Under the pieces are notes generated by a model. The model did no database searches and was not told the origin of the DNA. It was given only the letters and a program-made list of their open reading frames with translations. From Octopus sinensis (lineage: Eukaryota), in assembly GCF_006345805.1 (NCBI RefSeq), contig NW_021834547.1, positions 1-47,308 of the forward strand: a stretch of DNA of 47,308 nt. The letters are read 5' to 3'. The stretch's first letter is position 1. Each line of letters starts with the position of its first letter. Below, in pieces: positions 1,775 to 47,308 of this stretch. A program made the translations under genes and the position numbers.

Positions 1775-2880
1775 ATACAGCTAGCCTCTTTCATAACCAT
1801 CATATGGTCATATAAACATAGTCTTCTCCCTCGAACGCATATGATTCCTCTTATGCCTAACTTTTCTCTTAAATACATTTGTACTTTGTTGTTCATATAC
1901 ACATATTTTTCACATCCAACGGAGAACGTAGGTTTTCACATGTCCACTGCATTTAGAGCCCACATCTTATTACTATGCTGCACTGTTGTTTGTATATAGC
2001 CATCATACAATCAGTTTTTCATTCTGATAGGGAAGCATTTTGTTACCAACAGAGGGAAAAACCTCTTGAAATTTCTCCAGCCTGTTTTTATTTTAGTAGC
2101 TATAACTTCAGAACAACCTCTCCACTGATGGGTAATAGAAACTATCTTTTTTGTTTAAGGATCTTCCTGAGCATTACAGAAAATCTATTTCCTATGCACA
2201 TATAGAATTTCTTTGCTAGTGTGCATCAATTGCATATAGAGTCTACTTTCTCTGTTAAACTGTCTGTGATACTACGGCAACTCTTGTGTTTCTATAGTTT
2301 GCACTAAGTATACCGCATGGAATTTCTAATAGTATCTCTGTATAGGGTTTGTGTGGCTGTCATAAGCTATTCTTCTGCTGCTAGCTTCTTCTTTGACCTC
2401 ACCTTTTCAGAGTAAGGAACTCTGTGAAACGTTTTCTGCAGATCAATGAATGCTAAGTAGAGCAGCTTACTCTTACCCAAATACATCTGCAGTCACTTCC
2501 CCAAAACATGGATTTTTTAATACTTATCTATTGCCCAGAACCGAACTTTATCTCGTCTCGTCTTTTTCTGTAATTGCTTGAGCTGTAGTTGTTCCCATAA
2601 CTTTCGTGTCCTTGTCCAGCAATTTGATACTCCTGTGATTACCTTTCTATAGCATCTCCTTTATGCTTGTAACAACTGTTGTAATGCTGTAATGCCAGTC
2701 ACTAGGTATACCACTTTCCTGTATAATCTGATTGACTATACAAGTAACTAAGCCATATCCCACAGTGCCAAGTATTTTAAACCTTATAATAGTAATTGCT
2801 AATGGGATTTCTCCTGCTTTAATATTCTTCAGGGCCCTATCTATCATATTACTACCAGCTAGAATGACTAGTCATTCTGT
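1775..2880 (-). mobile_element. Degenerate RTE-clade LINE RT
   Basis: ORF 2647-2847 (ALKNIKAG..GYGLVT.IVNQIIQESGIPSDW), then YLAFIDLQKTFHRVP and a C-terminal LREKLGIRGI-like segment. Confidence 0.75.
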
Positions 2881-2978
2881 TGGAAAGATCTTTCTTCCAT
2901 GTTATCTCCACATATAGTAACCTTAAATGATAGCACTTTCAAGTTTTTTTTACCTCCCTGAATCACTTCTATCCATCC

Positions 2979-12897: not shown

Positions 12898-15843
12898 ATG
12901 GCACTCACAGAAACGCATCTTGAACCCGATATAGGTGATGCAGAAATACACATGCCGCAATATGCAGTCATACGCACAGATAGAAAAGGGAGGAGCCATG
13001 GTGGAGTTGCAATGTACATCCGAGATGACCTCACGCCCCAGGTCCTGCTGTCATATTCAAACTCAGTATGTGAAACTCAAATTGTACACATAAGACAACT
13101 GAATATCGTCATATGCACTACATATCGCCCACCAGACGCCCCAAAACACTCAGGCATGTTTGAAGACTGCCTAACAAAAATAGAAGTCCTCACCAACCTT
13201 GAACAGCACAACAGTGTATTCTTCATGGGTGACTTTAACCTCCCCAATGTGGAATGGCCTGGGGGGCAGATGCTCCCAGGGATGACACACCATCAGCAGG
13301 CACAGGTGGAGTCCCTGCTCCATCTCACAAATACCTCTTTCATGGAGCAAATAGTTCTGCAACCAACAAGGGCAGATAATATACTGGATCTGCTTCACAA
13401 ACAATATGGATATTATCCATAATGTTAATGTGATGCCGACAATGATCTCGGATCACAACATAATAGAGCTGTCTATGTATGGAACAAAAGCCCCTGCATA
13501 CACACAGCCTATACGAAGCACCTACCATCTCTCCAACTTAAACTTTCATAAATCAAAGTCACTGGAAGTCGATTGAGAAAGAGATCCTCAAGCAGGATTG
13601 GCCTGAATGTCTCTCCACACCGGACATAAACATGAAACACAAACACTTCATGTCCATAATACAAGCCATATGTGACAATATGTCCCAATGTGCAGGGCCA
13701 GCACACACAAGAACAAAAACAGGATCCCTAGAGAAAGGAGGATTCTTATGAGACGACGGACAAGGATTGCAAACCGCCTGAGCAAGCACAGCAAAAGTGG
13801 TGAGAAGTCTCGGCTCGAAAGAATGCTAATGGAAACTGAGAAAAAGTCTACATCAGTCCCATGAAAAGGGAGAGAGCAGATAAAGAAGCTTGGGTAATAG
13901 AAAATATAAAATCAAACCCTAAAGCTTTCTTTAAGTTTGCCAAAGAGACAGCCACAGTGCACCAGAGAATAGGACCTCTCTTCCAAAAAGATGGCTCTCT
14001 CACAGGAAATCCCACGAGGATAAGTGAAATACTGAACAAACAGTTCCAAAGTGTGTTCACTACACCTCTAGGACACAGGCAAGTAAACAACCCAGAAGAA
14101 TTCTTTGCCACTTTACCAGCGGCCAAAGAGACAAAAATTGAGTACATCAACATCGAAGAAGATGATATCACACTAGCCATTGATGAGATTGACACAAACT
14201 CAGCTGCTGGACCTGATGGATCCCAGCGATCCTTCTCAAATCGTGCAAACGAGCCCTTGCAAAACCGCTACAGCTTCTTTTTCAGAGCTTTCTTGCAAGT
14301 GGTAAGCTCCCAGTCAAACTGAAAGAGGGGGTAATATGCCCTATCCATAAGGGAGGTAGCAGAGCAGATGCTAAAAAAATTAGGCCTATCTCTCTGACCT
14401 CACACATCAGCAAAGTCATGGAACGAATAGTCCGTAAGAAACTAATCATCTTCCTTGAAGAAAATGACTTACTGTCTGACACCCAGCATGGATTTCGACC
14501 AGGTAGAGGCTGCCTAACACAGCTCCTGCAACACTATGACTGGGTGTTGAAACAGCTACTAAATGGCTCAAATGTGGATGTAATATATCTTGACTTTGCA
14601 AAAGCCTTTGATAAAGTCGACCATGGTATGATCTGTCACAAACTGCGTGGTCTCGGCAAAGGCGGGAAACTTGGAGAGTGGCTGCACAACTTCCTAAAAG
14701 ACAGAAAACAGGCAGTGGAGCCACCTCCAGGGAAACGCAAATAACAAGCGGTGTCCCACAGTGCGCTGTCTTGGGGCCACTGATGTTCATAGTGGCCCTT
14801 TCAGACATGCCTTCAGTTGCTACGATGACCACCCTTGCTAGCTATGCAGATGACACAAAAGTCTCCCACGCAATACAAAACCCTGAAAATATTGCGCATC
14901 TGCAACATGAGCTGGACACAATATACAGGTGGGCTGAGGACAACAACATGCAGTTTAATGCAGGTAAGTTCCAGGCCTGCGCTACTGGCACACAAAGGTA
15001 AATGACGTGAAGACTGGATACACTGGCCCAGGAAGAATTGCAATCCCTGAGTCAAATCAGTGCGTGACCTGGGCATTGACATGAGCAATGATGCATCTTT
15101 CCAAATGCATATTGCTAATCTGGTGATAAAATGCAGACGGCTAGCTGGATGGATTCTCCGAACTTTCAGAACAAGAGAGAAGGAGACACTGATGGTCCTA
15201 TGGAAAACATTTGTCCTCAGCCGCTTGGACTACTGCTCCCAACTTTGGTCACCACACAATATAAAACAAACAGCAGAACTCGAAGCAACTTAGAGAAGCT
15301 ACACAAAGAAAATCGTCTCAATGCAAAATGTCAGCTACTGGGAAAGACTGAAGGTATTAAACCTCTTCTCCCTCGGAGCGAGGCAGAGGAGAGAGATATG
15401 CAGTGATACATCTGGAAAATCCTGGAGGGTCTTGTCCCAAACTTTGGCATTCAAAGTTACTCCAACCGCAGAACGGGGCGCCGCTGTGTGGTGCCAAGGA
15501 TTCCAACATCACCATCAAAATACAGGTCCAGATACTGCAACAGCTTGGGTTTCAGAGGACCACAGCTCTTTAACATCCTCCCTAAATGCCTGAGAGACTT
15601 ACATGGTGTGGATGTGGGTTTCTTTAAAACTAAACTGGATCTCTTCTTGTTGGGAGTCCCAGATGAACCTACCTCACGACAGGAGACACAGGATGCGGGC
15701 AGCAGCATCGAACTCCCTTGTTGATCAAGTCCCACGTATCAGAGGTGGATTCACAAACTAGTGTAGCTCATTCAGCGGTGGTGCCCCAGCATGGCCACGG
15801 CCTTCGGGCTAAAACATTTTTAAGGATTTAAGGATTTTAAGGA
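12898..15843 (+). mobile_element. CR1/L2-group LINE, near-complete frameshifted ORF2 (APE endonuclease + RT) with 3' UTR and (AAGGATTT)n tail
   Basis: ALTETHL, GGVAMY, YRPP, MGDFNLP, PTRADNILDL, QHGFRPGRGC, YLDFAKAFDKVDH, SGVPQ..VLGPL, YADDTK, LDYCSQLWSP. Confidence 0.95.
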
Positions 15844-24100: not shown

Positions 24101-24636
24101 TTTCAGTGGAGGAACGCGTTCTGCGGGGTCATAAACTGTTTCCCCTCCATCAGTACTTTGCTTGTTCGTCCCTCATTCGATATATTCCGTAAAATTTCAA
24201 ATTCATTACGTAAATACCATTCGCTTACGTAGACCCCGCATTTCATTTTGTATTGTCCCTCTGTGTTTCGTCCTTGCGGTCGAAATAAAAGTCATTCGTA
24301 ATTTCTCCTTTTTTGGTACGTGTTTCATTTCTGCTGAAAGTTTTGGCGTGGATGGTTGTGCTTTTGTGTGCTGCTTTGCAGCGGTCCTTTTTGTGAAAAG
24401 CCACCATTCGTTTGGTGGTTGTCAGTCGTTGAGAAAATGAAAAGCTATGCTGAATGAACAGAGGGTCGAACGTGTGTTGACCCGAGGGTACTGAAGCAGA
24501 ATGTATTCTTTCCCGATTTGGGACTGATGAAGAAATGTGGAAGTTTGATCAAGAGGGAGGGGTCAAATGTAAAGATGTCTCTTCCAGAGCGAGAGCGCGC
24601 TGTAATAAGAAAGAGGACGATAACATACAGAACTTT

Positions 24637-24772
24637 TAAATTTCTAAATATCTCAGAGATATAAGCAGTGGTGGTACGATAGAGCAGCTGTATATTGCCA
24701 ACTTAACGTGACAGTCCCATAAAGGGAATCACACCACCGCTATTTAGTCCCGGGAAGCATCAACGCTTCCTG
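24637..24772 (-). repeat. Structured leader repeat, copy 2 (copy 1 at 26828-26925)
   Basis: TAAATTTCTAAATATCTCAGAGATATAAGCAGTG..TCCCATAAAGG.AATCAC..ACCGCTATTTAG.CC..GGAAGC..GCTTCCT is shared; copy 1 lacks about 35 bp internally. Confidence 0.85.
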
Positions 24773-24844
24773 TCGGTCTTGACACATTTCCTGTGTCCTT
24801 ATGTTTACATGGGGGAGACAAGCACCCCCTCCAGCCAAGCCTGC

Positions 24845-24888
24845 ATCCAGAGACATGTTTCTGAGTCTTGCTCGTCATCAGTCTGGAT
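24845..24888 (-). ncRNA. Minimal type-I hammerhead ribozyme, core intact
   Basis: AUCCAGA CUGAUGA C GAG CAAGA CUC A GAAA CAUG UC^ UCUGGAU: 7-bp stem I, canonical core, palindromic ACAUGU helix III and GUC cleavage triplet. Confidence 0.85.
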
Positions 24889-25318
24889 TAGCATGGCTTT
24901 TTTCTTTATTATAGGCACAATGGCTTGATTATATAGAGGGGACATAACAAGACAAACGGGAACATAACACAAATGATGTATGATTGATGGAATGATTAAC
25001 AAATAATGAGAATGAGACGCTTCGACTTACTTCCGCTGCGAGACGAACTCTGAACTTTTCACATTAATTCTCAATACCATCGTGTCTCACTGTGAAGCGA
25101 AACCACAATGGTCTTCGTATCATTATCGTATAAAATGTATCATTAATTGTTCACATTAGTCTTTCTATTTTCCTTTTCTATTTTATCTTTTTTTTTTCCA
25201 AGTATTACATTTTTTCTTTTTTTTACAATTTCACAAAACACAAGTTCAATTCTCAGTTCATTTACAGTTCAATTCACAGTTCTTTTTAAACATTAATTGC
25301 ATTACGCTCGTAATTATA

Positions 25319-26779
25319 TTACCGTCTGCGTTTTTTACCACATTTATACTTTACACGACATTTCTTCTTCCTCTCGTTCTCTTTCTTTTCTTGTGTTCTC
25401 CTTCTCGAGTCTACCGCTTCGTTCACATCTTCCTCCGTTTGTGTATCTGTAATTTCTCCCGGCTGCAAATACGTCTCTTCCATCTGTTGTTCTTTATCTT
25501 TGAGCTTAAACAACTTTAGATTTCCTCGCCATATACTTCTTCGTTTTGCAGTTCCATCGCTCTCAATATCTCTTCTATAGTTGGTTCCTCAGTGTTACCA
25601 TTCTAATTAATATTATCTGCCATTCCTCTATCCGTTTCCATTTTTTCTAAAGTTGGTGAGTTTTTCAAATACTTCTCTTCCGTCTGTTCTTCTTTATCTT
25701 TGAGCTTAAAGAACTCTAGATTTTCTCGCTCTGTTTTGTCTTCGTTTTGCAGTTCCATCGCTCTCTCTATCTCTTCTATAGTTGGTTCTTCAGTGTTACA
25801 GTTCTGATATGTTATATTCTCTGCTATTCCTTTACTTTTTTCGTTTCTTTTAAAGTTGGTGACTTTTTACGTTCTCTCTTCCTGCTCTTCACCATATTAG
25901 TTCTATTATTGTTCCCCCTCTTCATTTCGTCGGCTGCATTTTCTTCCACAATTGTTTCCAACCTTTTCTCTACTTCTGTATTCGGGCATTTCCTTCGCAT
26001 ATGCCCCCTTATGCCACACAAGTAGCATTTTGGGGGTCTTCCCTGCAGCACAATATCTAACTTTTCACCGGTCGGTAATTCAATTTCATAACCCCCAAAA
26101 TTCAAGCATTGTTTTGCTCACTGTTAGTACGTTCAACTTTGTATTTCCTCTCTTCAAATACTCTCTGAAGATTCCCACTATTACCCATTCAGGCTCTATT
26201 ATGGGTGGGATTCTTCCAACTCTAATTTTCACTAACATTTTCCTGGTTTGTCGGGTATGAGAGTCCACCTATTTCCTTCTATCACTTGGTCGTTCCTCTT
26301 TGCCGCCTCCACATTTTCAAATATAACATTTACCTTGCCGTATTGGCTTCCTCTATTTATAAAAAAAACACTATAACCATACAGCACTATACCATTGCTT
26401 CTATTTGAAATTCAGGTGCTATTTCAATCCTCCTGGATTCGTTGGAGAATGTTCTGTATGCTATTGTTGAATTCCTTAACATTTTCTTTTTCTCCTCCGA
26501 CATTATAAGCTTCACATTCGTTGCTTCTCTTTCTACTTTGCTCATGTATCTCTTCATCTTTTCAGGGTCCCAATTCAACGACTTCGGTGTTAGGCTTCTT
26601 AATTTCTCTTTTTCCGGGTCTTCCACTGTCGCTTCCGCGTAGCTCTTGATTTCCAATTTTTCTTTTACCACCAAACGTCGGCTTCGTACGCATCTTCGAT
26701 TAGCTTCTCTCAAAAAACAACAAAACCTGGAGTAGCATGATTTGCTAGCTGCAGATACCTGTCTAGATCTTGTGAACAT
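25319..26779 (-). mobile_element. Frameshifted gag/ORF1-like protein with CCHC zinc knuckle (Tx1/L1-like ORF1)
   Basis: ORFs 26387-26887, 26086-26268, 25824-26105 and 25319-25513; KSYAEA, VKIRVGRIPP..EW and QGRPPKCYLCGIRGHMRRKC (CX2CX4HX4C), with a K/E-rich C-terminus. Confidence 0.8.
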
Positions 26780-26827
26780 ATATAATTCCAGTGAAATAAA
26801 TCCACTGATCACAAAAAATCGAAATAT

Positions 26828-26936
26828 TAAATTTCTAAATATCTCAGAGAGATATAAGCAGTGATGGTATCCCATAAAGGAAATCACATTACCGCTATTT
26901 AGCCCTAGGAAGCGTCGATGCTTCCTAGGGCTAAAT
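26828..26936 (-). repeat. Leader repeat copy 1, bounded by a perfect 17-bp hairpin
   Basis: Similarity to 24637-24772; ATTTAGCCCTAGGAAGC-gtcgat-GCTTCCTAGGGCTAAAT at 26897-26936. Confidence 0.85.
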
Positions 26937-27553
26937 TAGATATTGACTATTACTGATATTAGATTATTGGTGGGTTTCTTACCTTAAAAATTAATACATA
27001 AAAATTAAAATTAATATTTAACATTTGCTAGTTTTATTCCCATTGATAAATATATTTATAGTATTTATAGTATTTATTCGATACTATATAACTACGAATT
27101 GATTATTTCAGTAAGTATTTTAAATATAGATTTCCGAAAGTTCGTTTAAGTTTGTTGTTGTATTTTTGAAATTAGCTATTTCATCTTTAAATATGAAAAA
27201 TTAATTTATTAGGTCTTTATTATATGTGCATTATATTTATTTATAGAGATTATTTTAGATCTTAATTATTATATATATATACATTTATATATTTTCATTG
27301 ATAATTTATATATAAAGTCATTTTTTTAAAAATTTATGTAATTAGGTATAGACTATTACCGATATAAGATTATTGGTGGGTTCTTACCTAAAAAATTAAA
27401 ATTAATATTTAACATATAATCGATTTTGATTGTAATCATAATCGTAAGTTTTAAGTTTCTAGTTGAAAATAGAGATTATTATAAGTAAAATTATTATTTA
27501 TTTATATTTAAAAATATTGTTTACTATTTCTGATTATTTTAAATATTTCAATT

Positions 27554-31125: not shown

Positions 31126-32317
31126 ATAATATTGCTTATTTTTCTTTCGAAAAAGATTTTTTACTCGATTGCTTGGAAGTGCTAAGGTGGAAACCGAGAT
31201 GTATAACTTGGTATAAGAAGAGACAAAAATTGAAATAATCATTTCATATTTATGATTTACATCAACATAATAAATACATAACTACATACACAGATATAAC
31301 ATATATCAAATTTAAGGTTAAAGGACGTTGAAACAAGGATTAATAGTTATAAGATACATCGACAGTAGTTAGAAATCCTAATTATAGATTTAAAATTTTA
31401 GAAGAGTTCCGAAGAAATGATGTACAGAGGTTTATAACATCAATATGAAGCAATTCGAAGGCCGTTTTTGGAGTCCATTAGTCAGCAGGTATGAATCCTT
31501 TCGATTCACACTGACATGTCCCCTTTACTAGGGATAAATAAATAGATAATTAATCAAGTTTGAAGATATGTAAGAGAAAAGAAAAGAAAGGAAGGAAATT
31601 TCTGGTTACATTACGTTGGTCGTCGGTTACTCTATCAGATACTGACCACTTTTACGATGATTCACGCTTATATACAAAAGGAAACTTCCAGTGTAGGATG
31701 ATGGGTGAAGTTTAAAAAACAATCGATTTTCCAATAAATTCCGAGAATAATCAATTACTAATAGCAGAAGAAGCAGGACTGCCAAATACTTAATTCCTTG
31801 TAACTCGTCTTATAGAGTTCCATGAAAGATGAGTGAAATGTATGGGTTCATGAATGAATGGTATCAGACAATTTATTTAATATGCCCGAATTGCAATATT
31901 TTAGAATAATGTATGATTCTCTAATGCATAAAGTACATTTGTAACCTATAGCATTATAGGGGAGGCCGCTTGCTAGTATATATGCTCTTATTCCTTAAAT
32001 TATGTATATATGAGGGTAGAGTAGTAGAATTTTTATATTTAATGTTAGTAAATGAATTTAAATGCGTTCTATAACTTTTTTTTTAAATACAACAGTACTA
32101 ACTATATATGTTCCAGTCTGATACTTATCTGATACTACTGTACATCCGTATACTACATTTTTATGGAGACAGAATCATTCAAGTGGGCATAAATCGATTT
32201 TTCTACAACTACATATTTTCCCTAATTTATTTTTGCTATTATCTATATATTTTGGAGGGGTGGATTTCCATTATTTAAGGCTACCTTAAAGAATTTTAGT
32301 TGAGGAAATCAACTCCG

Positions 32318-41888: not shown

Positions 41889-41895
41889 CATACAT

Positions 41896-43140
41896 TTGAT
41901 TTCAGTAAGGCCTTCGATAGGGTCGATCACAAGATACTATTGAAAAAACTATCCAACATTGGTGTCTCTGGAAAGTTACTGAAATGGATCAAGTGTTTCC
42001 TGACAGACAGATCTCAACATGTTGTAGTTGAAGGGGTAAAATCAAGCCCAGCCAAAGTCAGTAGTGGCGTTCCGCAAGGCACTGTGCTGGGCCCACTTCT
42101 TTTCATCATTTACATTAATGACATTAACGACATCATCAAGCACAGCAACATAAAACTTTTTGCAGATGATTCCAAGCTACAGAAGGTCATAAATGAGGCG
42201 AGTGACCGGACATGCCTTCAGTCAGATCTACTGGCTGTTATCCAATGGGCAGAAAAAAACAATATGCTGCTGAACGAGGATAAATCTGAGTTAATCCACT
42301 TTGGAAAAGAGGATGCCCTGAAACTCCCATACTCCCTTCCTTCAGGTGAAACTCTCGCGGCGTCCAACAACATCAGAGACTTGGGTAATTGTGGACAACA
42401 ACATAAGCTGGGCCACTCATATAAACACCAAAGTTGACATGGCCCGCAGAATGTGTTCCTGGATTCTCAGAACTTTCCAGTCGAGAGATATCCACACCCA
42501 TTATCCTTCTCTTCTCCACTTTTGCCCGACCCCACCTTGAATACTGTTGTCCACTGTGGTCTCCCCACACAATACAAGGTATCATAAAAGTTGAAGCAAC
42601 TCAAAGGGCAATCACAAAAAAGATAGATGGCATGACAGGCCTCGACTATTGGGGTCGACTAGAAAAGCTAAAACTTTATTCTCTCCAACGTCGTCGTGAG
42701 CGCTACATCATCTGCATGATGTGGAAATATTCCATCAGCATTGCCCAAATGATGTTGGCATCACCTTTAAGTACAAATCGAAGGCTTGGACCCCGCGCCA
42801 TCCCCCCAACAAAAATCGCACTCTCATCTCATAACAACAATACGGCACAATTATTTCACCTCAATTGGCCCCGCTCTCTTTAACATTACACACAACAAAC
42901 ACACATTAAAACGGAAACTGACCCTATAGGGTTCAAGAAGTCTTTAGACAGATTCTTTCAAGAAATCCCGGATAAACCCCATACACCCGGATATGTCTCT
43001 GTAAACAATAACTCTCTACTTGAGTGGGCCATAGTGCCCAAATTCTGACTTGAAAGACTTCACCAGTGGTGCTATTAAGTTAGAACATGGCCTGGGCCAA
43101 TAATGGCCGAAACCTATCAAATCAGTATCAAAGTATCAAG
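41896..43140 (+). mobile_element. Second CR1/L2-group family, 5'-truncated RT to 3' end
   Basis: [42 protein letters not shown], and an (AAGTATC)-like tail. Confidence 0.95.
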
Positions 43141-44694: not shown

Positions 44695-44709
44695 TAATAT
44701 ATATATATA

Positions 44710-45931
44710 AAGTCGATCATGGAATGATATGTCACAAACTGCGTGATCTTGGCATAGTTGGAAAATTGGGAGAATGGCTTCATGACTTTCTGAAGAATAG
44801 AAGTCAGGTGGCCACTTCCATTAACACGCAAATAATGAGCGGTGTTCCGCAGGGCACTGTTTTGGGACCACTACTGTTCATAATGGCCCTCTCAGACATG
44901 CCCTCAGCCACGCAGAGAGCCACGATCACAAGTTATGCAGATGATACAAAAGTTTCACAGGCAATGCAGAACCCTGAGGACACTAAGCACCTGCAATGTG
45001 AGCTGGACGAAATATACAAGTGGGCTGAAAAGAATAGCATGCAGTTGAATGCTGAAAAGTTTCAAGCTTTATACTATCAGCATGCAAAACTGAATGCAAT
45101 ACCCATTGAATACACTGGACCCGGAGGGATTGCAATCCCAGAGGCACAATGAGTGCGTGACCTGGGTATTCACATGAGTGATGACGCGACCTTTCATGTA
45201 CATGTTGCTAAACTGGCAATGAAATGTAGACGGCTGGCTGGATGGATCCTTAGAACCTTCAGAACAAGAGAACAAGAAACCATGATGGTCCTCTGGAAGA
45301 CACTTGTCCTAAGCCACTTTGGCTATTGCTCTCAGCTATGGTCACCATCCGGTGTCAAGATGATCACAGAATTTGAGGCGATCCAACGAAGCTACACGAA
45401 GAAGATAGCCTCTGTGCAGCATATGAGCTACTGGGAAAGACTCAAGAGATTAAAGCTCTATTCCCTGGAGCGTAGGCGAGAAAGATATGCCACAATATAT
45501 CTGGAAGATCTTGGAAGGACTTGTCCCAACTTTGGCATCGAGAGTCACACAAATGCCAGACCCGGCGCACTGCATAGTACCAAGGACTCCAAATTTGCCA
45601 TCAAGATGTAGGACAAGATATTTGTGATAGCCTGGGCTTCAGAGGCCCAAGCCCTTCAATATACTCCCAAAGAACCTGAGGGACCTGCATGCTGTATATG
45701 CGGATGTCTTTAAAGTAGGACTGGACCTCTTCCTGTCAGGTGTCCCGGATGACCAAAGCTTCACGGCAGGAGGTGCAGATGAGGGCCCTCGCATCGAACT
45801 CTCTCATGCATCAGATGGCGTTTGCTAAAAATCATCCGTGAGGTAAAATCGTGTAGCAAACAATATGGCGGTGCCCCAGCATGGCCACAGCTCATTAGCT
45901 GAAACTGGAAAAATCAAAATCAAAATCAATC
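44710..45931 (+). mobile_element. CR1/L2-group LINE, 5'-truncated RT to 3' end
   Basis: [29 protein letters not shown], and the 3' UTR with (AAAATC)n tail. Confidence 0.95.
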
Positions 45932-46388: not shown

Positions 46389-47308
46389 TAACTTAGAATA
46401 ACTTAGAAAGGTTTTTGGCCAGTATTGGCCCAGCCATGGTCTAACTTAATAGCACCACCTGGCGAAGTCTTTCAGTTCAGGATTTGGGCACCAAGGCCCA
46501 TTCGAGCAGAGAGTTATTGTTGCGGAGACATATCCGGGTGTGGATGGTTTGTCCGATACTGTTTGAAGGAATTTTCCAAAGACTTCTTGAATTTTGTGTG
46601 GTCAGTTTCTTTTTTGACGTGTCCTGGTGTGTATGTTGAAGAGAGCGGGTCCAATTGAGGTGAAATAGTTGTTCCGTATTGTCGTTATGTGATGCGATTT
46701 AGATTTTTGTTGTGGACGGATGGCACGTGGTCCAAGCCTTGGATGCATTTTGAAGGTGATGCAACATCATTCGGACATTGTGATGAATATTTCCACATCA
46801 TAACAGATAATGTAGCGTTCACGGCGTCGTTGGAGCGAATACAATTTCAGCTTCTCTAGTCTACCCCAGTAGTCAAGGTCTGACATGCCATCTATCTTTT
46901 TGTGATTGACCTTTGGGGAGCTTCAATTCTCATAATATTTTGTTTTGTGTAGGGAGACCACAGTGGACAGCAGTATTCAAGGTGGGGTCGGGCAAAAGTG
47001 GAGAAGAGAAGGATAATAGCGTGGGAATCTCTCGACTGGAAGGTTCTGAGAATCCAGGAACACATTCTGCGGGCCATGTCAACTTTGTGCTTATATGTGT
47101 AGCCCAGCTTATGTTGTTGTCCACTGTTACTCCCAGGTCTCTGATGTTGTTGGATGCCATGAGAATTTCTCTCCAGAAGGAAGAGAGTAATGGGAGTTTC
47201 AGAGCGTCCTCCCTCCAAAGTGGATCAGTCGAATTTGTCTTCATTTAGCAACATGTTATTCTTTTCCGCCCATTGGACAACAGCTAGTAGGTCTGACTGA
47301 AGGGTTAT
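46389..47308 (-). mobile_element. Second-family CR1/L2-group LINE copy, inverted relative to 41896-43140
   Basis: [31 protein letters not shown] and a homologous 3' UTR; runs off the window end. Confidence 0.95.

What the first reader, a model, noticed from the sequence alone, without database searches (positions are those of the whole stretch)
24637..26936. Hammerhead-headed leader repeated around a CCHC gag-like ORF: candidate ribozyme-processed, gag-encoding retroelement
Seen, on the minus strand in order: leader copy 1 (26936-26828), gag/ORF1-like CCHC ORF (about 26780-25320), A-rich tract and AATAAA (about 24905), a core-intact hammerhead (24888-24845), hairpins (GGGGG..CCCCC, GACACA..TGTGTC, GGAAGC..GCTTCC), then leader copy 2. 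Predicted cleavage between 24852 and 24851 would create the leader's 5' end. Established: hammerheads occur in Penelope pLTRs and non-coding retrozymes, whereas LINE 5' ends (R2, RTE, L1Tc) typically use HDV-like ribozymes. Inference: either a Tx1/L1-like family whose 5' end is defined by a hammerhead (tandem head-to-tail copies here), or an LTR-like retrozyme carrying gag, possibly with a circular RNA intermediate. No RT is linked in this window, and copy 1 lacks the ribozyme.
Basis: partly seen in the sequence, partly recalled or inferred. Interest (0 to 1): 0.85.

Follow-up and report, generated by a model that had tools for sequence, protein, structure and literature searches.

The report
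LINE parasite that targets hammerhead retrozymes
A decayed one-gene jumping element sits, between short duplicated ends, just in front of the hammerhead-ribozyme motif of a small octopus repeat; it belongs to a LINE lineage whose copies land at that spot in many different hammerhead repeats, and the combined unit was likely copied onward as one piece.

Summary
The sequence features are real, but they are two elements. The hammerhead and both 'leaders' are one circularly permuted ~350-nt non-LTR retrozyme unit (at least 621 genomic copies; most lack the ORF). The 'gag' is a LINE ORF1 (predicted RRM-RRM-CCHC) in a 1.8-kb ORF1-only element, inserted with a 13-bp target-site duplication (TSD) just upstream of the hammerhead core; this copy is broken.
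The pairing is systematic. Of 266 genomic 3' ends of this lineage, 115 have a hammerhead core 15-42 nt downstream (control 0), across many hammerhead families. Related autonomous APE-RT elements sit at the equivalent site with TSDs (20 of 28 ends precede a hammerhead), and once at a U2 snRNA gene start.
In the window's subfamily, 10 of 10 5'-truncated copies lack the upstream target half but keep hammerhead and retrozyme tail, four with inverted arms. So the composite was probably re-copied by Penelope-type machinery, as a ~2.2-kb ORF-carrying retrozyme.
Tx1 elements that target other transposons, ORF1-only LINEs and retrozymes are each known; I found no report of retrozymes as targets. Cleavage, circles, transcription and the Penelope partner are unshown.

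The parts
26897..26936 (-). Palindromic junction (17-bp arms) where the upstream retrozyme piece is 5'-truncated and inverted
   Evidence: z -9.8; same junction with a longer inverted arm in L091 and L101
26727..26936 (-). Upstream part of the retrozyme unit ('leader copy 1'), i.e. the left half of the target
   Evidence: this stretch runs straight into the hammerhead in copies without the ORF
26727..26739 (-). Left copy of the 13-bp target-site duplication
24898..26726 (-). ORF1-only LINE derivative (T-rich head, ORF1, 3' UTR, AATAAA, short A tail), no ORF2
25319..26650 (-). Broken ORF1: predicted RRM-like + RRM-like + CCHC, then a charged tail; stops and frameshifts; start codon position reads ATC
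25986..26027 (-). CCHC zinc-knuckle codons
   Evidence: PF00098 on the open copy L095
25466..25868 (-). Internal ~200-bp tandem duplication in the ORF1 tail (84% identical)
24903..24918 (-). Conserved 3'-end motif of the ORF1-only lineage, including AATAAA
   Evidence: 266 exact genomic matches, control 5
24883..24895 (-). Right copy of the target-site duplication; overlaps the 5' strand of hammerhead stem I
24845..24888 (-). Type I hammerhead motif with palindromic stem III/loop; predicted cut 24852/24851
24629..24851 (-). Rest of the retrozyme unit ('leader copy 2' with hairpins), ending at one of the family's two preferred 3' ends

Best explanation
The locus is an ORF1-only LINE derivative, likely of the Tx1 clade, lying between target-site duplications just upstream of the hammerhead core of a ~350-nt non-LTR retrozyme, and such composites were likely re-copied as single units by Penelope-type machinery. 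Steps: (1) SHOWN: the genome holds many hammerhead repeat families with empty and filled versions of the same site. (2) SHOWN: ORF1-only and autonomous ORF1+ORF2 elements sit at that site with 13-21-bp duplications that match the local target. (3) INFERRED: an APE-RT protein nicks about 15-40 nt upstream of the core and copies its own RNA in cis or ORF1-only RNA in trans; the duplication regenerates the site, which gives head-to-tail arrays (arrays shown). (4) INFERRED: the insert is co-transcribed with the retrozyme. (5) INFERRED from insertion structure: a Penelope-type RT primes at the retrozyme tail downstream of the hammerhead and copies back through it into the insert, giving 5'-truncated and inverted composites. 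(6) UNTESTED, about 35%: hammerhead cleavage trims or circularises the ~2.2-kb composite RNA and this matters for its spread. The window copy itself is decayed.
For: Empty versus filled sites and TSDs: (10 empty, 6 filled, 1 other of 17). Genome-wide: 115 of 266 tails are followed by an exact hammerhead core, control 0; 15 of the first 30 tails by position are followed by a core and 5 more by another element's head. From the target side, 7 of 30 position-ordered sites carry a LINE tail, one with ORF2 C-terminus (L301) and one internally deleted (L313). Autonomous partner: APE-RT-zf-RVT, best PDB match human L1 ORF2p; 20 of 28 3' ends precede a hammerhead at 30-33 nt; 29 of 36 show the duplication at the 5' end by script and 5 more by eye. 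Independent insertion: L261 is 5'-truncated inside a 357-nt tandem array with a TSD; L291 and L263 carry a locus-specific TSD variant on both sides. ORF1 is homologous to ORF1 of the autonomous elements; ORF1-only rows split from ORF2-linked rows at 100/99; dN/dS medians 0.12-0.24 between families. Composite copying: 10 of 10 5'-truncated loci lack the upstream target half, 4 have an adjacent inverted arm; 3' ends cluster in two classes about 50 nt apart, often beside (TA)n, as described for PLE tails (PMC8557442, PMC11167929). Insert and downstream unit distances correlate (Mantel r 0.69, n 19). Hammerhead stems covary and stem III is palindromic in 62 of 79 motifs.
Against: No autonomous Penelope element was tied to these hammerhead families: the PLE ORF beside L198 is not joined to that hammerhead in 29 other copies, and a scan of 360 held loci found no credible GIY-YIG end upstream of such a hammerhead (1 doubtful row). 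Tx1 membership was not tested against named RT sequences. Only one clearly 5'-truncated, target-flanked copy (L261) was seen, and the autonomous sample was the 40 best matches, so part of the enrichment is hitchhiking of a few founder insertions; the number of independent insertions is not known. 151 of 266 tails do not match the strict hammerhead pattern (some are tandem heads or decayed cores, some look off-target). In the window's own subfamily, selection on ORF1 is not clear (pN/pS 0.58 between groups, 0.61-0.73 within), and within-type Mantel tests are not significant. The dN/dS set was chosen for open frames. The ORF1 tree has long branches meeting and a midpoint root.
Confidence: 0.77

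Rival explanations
1. The hammerhead and leader are intrinsic ends of one element: a long retrozyme captured ORF1 once or a few times and diversified, and the short units are its deletion derivatives.
For: Composite copying is real in the window's subfamily; junctions are nearly invariant within subtype ii and insert and flank distances correlate overall.
Against: Duplications of different length and sequence match each local target; closely related inserts sit in unrelated hammerhead families; tandem arrays are separated by one TSD; autonomous relatives also sit with TSDs in a U2 snRNA array and another repeat; L261 is a truncated insert in an intact array.
Confidence: 0.1
2. A Tx1/L1-like family whose own 5' end is made by a hammerhead, seen here as head-to-tail tandem copies.
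For: In tandem targets an upstream hammerhead would cut the co-transcript about 320 nt before the insert (L283).
Against: Tandem inserts join tail-TSD-head with no hammerhead between them (L098, L100, L164, L175); most leader copies have no ORF; nothing follows leader copy 2 in the window.
Confidence: 0.04
3. Targeting is real but has nothing to do with the ribozyme: the endonuclease reads a short DNA motif in an abundant harmless repeat, as Tx1-Mar does in a Mariner element, and composite copying is an accident with no benefit. This shares steps 1-5 of the best explanation and disputes only step 6 and any adaptive reading.
For: One copy sits at the start of a U2 snRNA gene whose sequence resembles the retrozyme target; hammerhead cleavage was not needed for PLE insertion in vitro (PMC11167929 passages); 8 of 9 Xenopus retrozyme dimers did not cleave in vitro; composite copies in the window's subfamily are mostly truncated and broken.
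Against: The site stays 15-42 nt upstream of the core across families whose upstream sequences differ widely, which a single fixed motif explains poorly.
Confidence: 0.45

Closest known systems
Target-specific Tx1-clade LINEs that insert into other repeats (Tx1L into Tx1D; Tx1-Mar and SINEU-3 into Mariner-N4_AMi; Tx1-9_AMi into Harbinger; Keno into U2 snRNA) - Kojima 2015, PMC4494074 (passages and sections 14-15 read)
   Same: APE-RT element, fixed site in a multicopy repeat, TSD, tandem copies sandwiching a TSD, non-autonomous riders sharing the target, proposed co-transcription with the target.
   Different: The target is a hammerhead retrozyme, i.e. an RNA-mobilised element; many divergent target families are used at the same offset from the ribozyme core; the rider is an ORF1-coding lineage, not a SINE; and hitchhiking, which Kojima excluded for SINEU-3, appears to occur here.
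Animal non-LTR retrozymes - Cervera and de la Pena 2020, PMC7229834 (passages); Li, Clavereau and Pollet 2026 preprint 10.64898/2026.07.22.740005 (parts 1-3 of 5 read)
   Same: Type I hammerhead, 348-356-nt permuted tandem unit, palindromic stem III, no RT of its own, PLE-like insertion structure.
   Different: Described as non-coding and 51-972 bp; here filled units of ~2.2 kb carry an ORF1 and appear to have been copied whole. Circular RNA is not shown here.
HAL1 (half-L1) ORF1-only LINE derivatives - described in PMC5753468 (passages); Bao and Jurka 2010 not held
   Same: Non-autonomous, encodes only ORF1, LINE-type 3' end.
   Different: Related to Tx1-type rather than mammalian L1 elements, target-specific, and diversified into many families. 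HeT-A (gag-only, head-to-tail arrays) is a recalled analogy, not tested.
Penelope-like elements and their pLTR/tail structure - PMC8557442, PMC11167929, PMC4209133 (passages)
   Same: 5' truncation, inverted arm at the 5' end, two alternative 3' ends downstream of the hammerhead, U3-A8 core variant, palindromic helix III. One Chlamys PLE type has an upstream CCHC ORF and a 3' hammerhead.
   Different: No RT/GIY-YIG ORF in the unit; the CCHC ORF is an inserted LINE ORF1 with its own TSD; the two ends are about 50 nt apart rather than 30-40.

Membership tests
Non-LTR retrozyme (the target repeat) | Type I hammerhead in each unit | tested here: met
   stem II closes with a mismatch in the commonest form
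Non-LTR retrozyme (the target repeat) | Short (150-450 bp) tandem or permuted multicopy unit | tested here: met
   348-356-nt period in 4 of 8 loci tried; 621 exact motif copies
Non-LTR retrozyme (the target repeat) | Non-coding | tested here: met
   Empty units hold no ORF1; not met by the filled 2.2-kb composite
Non-LTR retrozyme (the target repeat) | Self-cleavage and circular RNA | not testable with these tools
   Only contigs were available, none on record as RNA
Penelope-type mobilisation | 5' truncation with adjacent inverted arm | tested here: met
Penelope-type mobilisation | Two alternative 3' ends (tail) downstream of the hammerhead | tested here: met
   60 of 109 ends at 24620-24649, 39 at 24670-24699; some rows are tandem continuations or allelic, and alignment ends are limited by the window query
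Penelope-type mobilisation | An autonomous RT+GIY-YIG element sharing the terminal repeat | tested here: inconclusive
   None found in held loci; no genome-wide test was possible
Tx1 clade | ORF1 plus ORF2 with APE, RT and C-terminal zinc finger (autonomous partner) | tested here: met
   shared with the L1 clade
Tx1 clade | Target-specific insertion with TSD (>20% of flanks in one repeat type) | tested here: met
   115 of 266 and 20 of 28; TSDs
Tx1 clade | 5'-truncated copies still flanked by target (independent insertion) | tested here: inconclusive
   Met by L261; not met by 10 of 10 truncated loci of the window's subfamily
Tx1 clade | RT phylogeny with named Tx1 references | not tested
   No named Tx1 sequence was returned; an O. 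vulgaris annotation lists L1-Tx1 as its active L1-group LINEs
HAL1-like ORF1-only LINE | ORF1 followed directly by 3' UTR and tail, no ORF2 | tested here: met
HAL1-like ORF1-only LINE | ORF1 kept under purifying selection | tested here: met
   Median dN/dS 0.12-0.24 among diverged families; inconclusive inside the window's subfamily
LTR retrozyme or LTR-type gag | Type III hammerhead in paired LTRs with 4-bp TSD | tested here: not met
   Type I motif in one repeat only; permuted unit; 13-21-bp TSD belongs to the insert
LTR retrozyme or LTR-type gag | Capsid fold | tested here: inconclusive
   Model (pLDDT 87) matches RRM/ferredoxin-like domains over residues 40-211 (best Z 8.0, rmsd 2.3-2.7, 74-81 aligned); sequence hits to Gag cover only the knuckle; the C-terminal part was not modelled
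LTR retrozyme or LTR-type gag | PBS and PPT | not tested
   not searched

The most novel reading that the evidence does not exclude
A LINE lineage has specialised on hammerhead retrozymes and replicates by two routes: its own target-primed insertion upstream of the ribozyme, and passive copying by Penelope RT as a ribozyme-processed, possibly circular, protein-coding retrozyme. The position upstream of the core is selected because Penelope RT primes downstream and copies back through it, and because the ribozyme supplies the RNA ends; read-through target RNA may help pick the site.
Probability: 0.25. Interest if true: 0.85.

Novelty: new variant of a known kind. Interest (0 to 1): 0.63.

Why it matters
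It adds a new class of target for sequence-specific LINEs and a three-level parasitism (Penelope element, retrozyme, LINE, plus an ORF1-only rider). It suggests that retrozymes can carry kilobases of coding cargo, where the literature read here describes them as short and non-coding. It offers a natural set of endonucleases that track a site at a near-constant distance from a ribozyme core across divergent flanks, with intact young ORF1 and ORF2 copies available (L280, L285, L294), so the specificity rule and the still unclear function of PLE hammerheads can be tested directly. It also warns repeat annotators: consensus builders will fuse these into false 'gag-hammerhead' elements.

Tried and rejected
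1. Rfam did not detect the hammerhead; a descriptor and covariation were used instead.
2. PLE ORFs near L164, L175 and L198 first looked like autonomous partners. L198's PLE is not joined to that hammerhead in its other copies. L175's lies about 2 kb away behind unrelated DNA, and L164's is a truncated ORF behind a (TA)n tract. My query held only the PLE ORF, not the hammerhead, so it tests nothing about linkage.
3. I first took L220 for an autonomous element with the window's tail motif; its ORF2 is on the other strand.
4. RNA: no RNA holder listed. Laying four contig sets on L283 gave no ends and, among the rows shown, no informative joints; this is no evidence on expression. Four organism labels hold half or more of that stretch's words, but no listed contig was seen to bridge the LINE-retrozyme junction.
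5. 80 distant ORF2 relatives (24-43% identity) from metagenome contigs have no hammerhead by my descriptor; many are cut short, so this says little about range.
6. ORF1 homologues in the large protein set were five Octopus vulgaris proteins only; Atlas look-alikes were ZCCHC3-RBD/RRM/CCHC clusters at 0.87-0.92, leads only. No capsid was listed in either fold search, which does not exclude one.
7. Literature searches for a Tx1 element targeting PLEs or hammerheads (background 15, 88, 92) found none. Repbase and subscription journals were not searchable, and no supplements were read; the O. vulgaris repeat library and Repbase entries could already note this target.
8. Earlier scan notes: nothing on this genome or protein.

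Full report
OBSERVATION. The minus strand carries a type I hammerhead at 24888-24845 with a predicted cut at 24852/24851. A strict descriptor finds it once in the window and never in 100 simulated windows. Rfam did not list it. The ORF is not open: it is cut by stops and frameshifts, and the start used by relatives reads ATC at 26650. The genome is 2.7 Gb; the nearest named proteins are from Octopus vulgaris, up to 98% identical to a paralogous copy, so it is taken to be an octopus.

THE LEADER IS A RETROZYME UNIT. The 274-nt hammerhead-plus-leader query had 2,858 candidates, 40 scored. Of the 30 loci cut out, 28 are not the window or its duplicate. None of those 28 matches the ORF, and in 24 the window's 26870-26727 stretch, or its end, runs straight into the hammerhead. 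The unit is permuted, with a period of 348-356 nt in 4 of 8 loci tried. An exact 17-nt motif of this family has 621 matches, control 0. Copies are 5'-truncated, often with an inverted arm, and end in two classes about 50 nt apart, often beside (TA)n. These are the insertion features described for Penelope-like elements (PMC8557442 passages), where the two ends are RT start sites downstream of the hammerhead (PMC11167929 passages). Across families, stems I and II covary, a U3-A8 core variant occurs, and stem III is palindromic in 62 of 79 motifs, as reported for metazoan and PLE hammerheads thought to act as dimers (PMC4209133 passages). This fits non-LTR retrozymes (PMC7229834 passages; preprint 10.64898/2026.07.22.740005 parts 1-3 of 5). 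An autonomous PLE sharing these repeats was looked for and not found, so the PLE link is inferred from structure.

THE ORF IS AN INSERTED LINE ORF1. The 26726-24898 segment is bounded by a direct repeat that occurs once at empty sites. It is 13 bp with one mismatch here and 19-20 bp in L092 and L093. A script found an upstream repeat for 27 of 76 tails; some of these are shared heads or chance rather than TSDs, many loci are truncated, and the window copy fell under the threshold. Clean 15-21-bp duplications are seen in L161, L164, L166-L170, L172, L175, L264 and L276. An open paralogue (L095, 363 codons) has only a zinc knuckle in Pfam. A model from 24 natural sequences (pLDDT 87) shows two RRM/ferredoxin-like domains before the knuckle. 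The protein search had 11,226 candidates, 150 scored. Some homologues are ORF1 of complete ORF1+ORF2 elements and many are ORF1-only, some in head-to-tail arrays separated by one TSD. ORF2 is APE-RT-zf-RVT with human L1 ORF2p as best solved match. In a tree of 51 open frames, the 26 ORF2-linked rows split from the 18 ORF1-only and 7 unclassed rows at 100/99; long branches meet and the root is a midpoint. Among 23 ORF1-only or unclassed frames (253 pairs, 102 saturated), median dN/dS is 0.24, 0.16 and 0.12 in rising dS bins (14, 28, 89 pairs) and 0.43 in the 5 closest pairs. Inside the window's subfamily the signal is unclear. This is a HAL1-like design (PMC5753468 passages).

TARGETING. The 16-nt tail motif has 266 exact matches (control 5). 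Of these, 115 are followed within 15-42 nt by an exact hammerhead core pattern (control 0), and the listed matches span many families with different upstream sequences. Of the first 30 tails by position, 15 precede a core and 5 precede another element's head. From the target side, 7 of the first 30 sites of the window's family carry a LINE tail: 4 flagged by script and 3 by eye, with ORF1 or ORF2 confirmed upstream in 6. For an autonomous family (909 candidates, best 40 scored; the query stopped at the tail), 20 of 28 ends found in 30 loci precede a hammerhead at 30-33 nt. Five precede another element's head, one a hammerhead with an internal deletion, one a U2 snRNA gene (Rfam 184 bits) and one unrelated DNA. 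In 36 longer stretches, 29 show the duplication at the 5' end by script and 5 more by eye. L261 is 5'-truncated inside a tandem array with a TSD, and L291 and L263 have their own TSD variant on both sides, which indicates separate insertions. A second hammerhead subtype used by the window's subfamily has 10 empty, 6 filled and 1 other site of 17. Target-specific Tx1 elements that use other transposons, U2 and microsatellites are known (PMC4494074 passages and sections 14-15). Tx1 membership here rests on architecture and behaviour, not on an RT tree.

HITCHHIKING. Kojima's test asks whether truncated copies are still flanked by target. In the window's subfamily, 10 loci are truncated inside the insert (L095, L096, L097, L104, L105, L107, L109, L110, L111, L112, L114 minus-strand duplicates counted once per locus; L105 and L110 are more complex). 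None has the upstream target half next to the truncation, four have an adjacent inverted arm, and all keep the hammerhead and end at retrozyme tail positions. In L095 and L109 both arms begin inside the insert. Left out of that count: full-length or tandem copies (L092, L093, L094, L098, L100) and nested or other-subfamily rows (L102, L106). Later deletion could explain single cases but not the inverted pairs. Insert and downstream distances correlate across 19 of 23 rows (r 0.69; 4 dropped as non-homologous), mainly between subtypes. The window alone cannot tell a direct insertion from a copied composite; it shares its truncation junction with L091 and L101, so these three are one event.

MECHANISM AND ODDS. 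Shown: anatomy, TSDs, empty and filled sites, enrichment, arrays, truncated composites. Inferred: trans-mobilisation by APE-RT, co-transcription with the target, re-copying by a PLE RT that primes downstream and reads back through an uncleaved or circular template. Untested: any role of cleavage (about 35%). Against such a role, cleavage was dispensable for a PLE in vitro and 8 of 9 frog dimers did not cleave. Two loci hint at read-through RNA: L098 has a piece of one target joined to another at a 4-nt overlap, and L277 carries retrozyme target letters at its 5' end inside a U2 array. No RNA evidence could be obtained.

NOVELTY. Each ingredient is known. Searches for a Tx1 element that targets hammerheads or PLEs found none, and the passages of the 2026 O. 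vulgaris repeat paper that I searched do not mention ribozymes or targets (PMC13282606). Repbase and supplements were not seen. Verdict: new variant of a known kind, interest 0.63.

Noticed in passing
L248:2112-2305 and L277: An autonomous element of the hammerhead-targeting family sits at the very start of a U2 snRNA gene in a U2 array, with a TSD; the U2 start resembles the retrozyme target motif. Possible link to U2-targeting Keno-like ancestry.
   Followed up: partly
L179:2500-7900: An intact related LINE (ORF1 536 aa, ORF2 1134 aa) lies with a 15-bp TSD inside another short repeat that looks SINE-like (label recalled, not tested); L178 and L180 are arrays at further unknown targets. The genome seems to hold a radiation of target-specific L1-group elements.
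   Followed up: partly
L164, L213, L229 hammerheads: A target family uses the U3-A8 core covariant; others use U3-G8 or U4C cores and GUU or GUA cleavage triplets.
   Followed up: partly
L164:8013-9374: One ORF1 copy in a tandem array has many Lys/Glu/Asn-to-Gly/Arg/Ser changes relative to its neighbour, as expected from heavy A-to-G change; could be ADAR-type hyperediting fixed by retrotransposition.
   Followed up: no
window 26934-27015 and 27340-27420: An 83-bp direct repeat (84%) in the AT-rich stretch upstream of the element; part of that stretch matches other loci, so it is another repeat.
   Followed up: no
window 1939-2883, 14244-15281, 31806-32243, 41895-42656, 44709-45362, 46903-47302: Fragments of other retroelements by local tblastn: RT pieces of two other LINE types and a GIY-YIG-side piece of a PLE; none is linked to the finding.
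   Followed up: partly
L332-L340: A PLE family with long open frames (RT plus C-terminal GIY-YIG), unrelated to the hammerhead beside L198.
   Followed up: partly
run X5: In one run guessed to be RNA, contig depth over the retrozyme part was about 1,200-2,000 against mostly 10-40 over the LINE part; contig depth is a poor measure and the run may be DNA, so this is only a lead.
   Followed up: no
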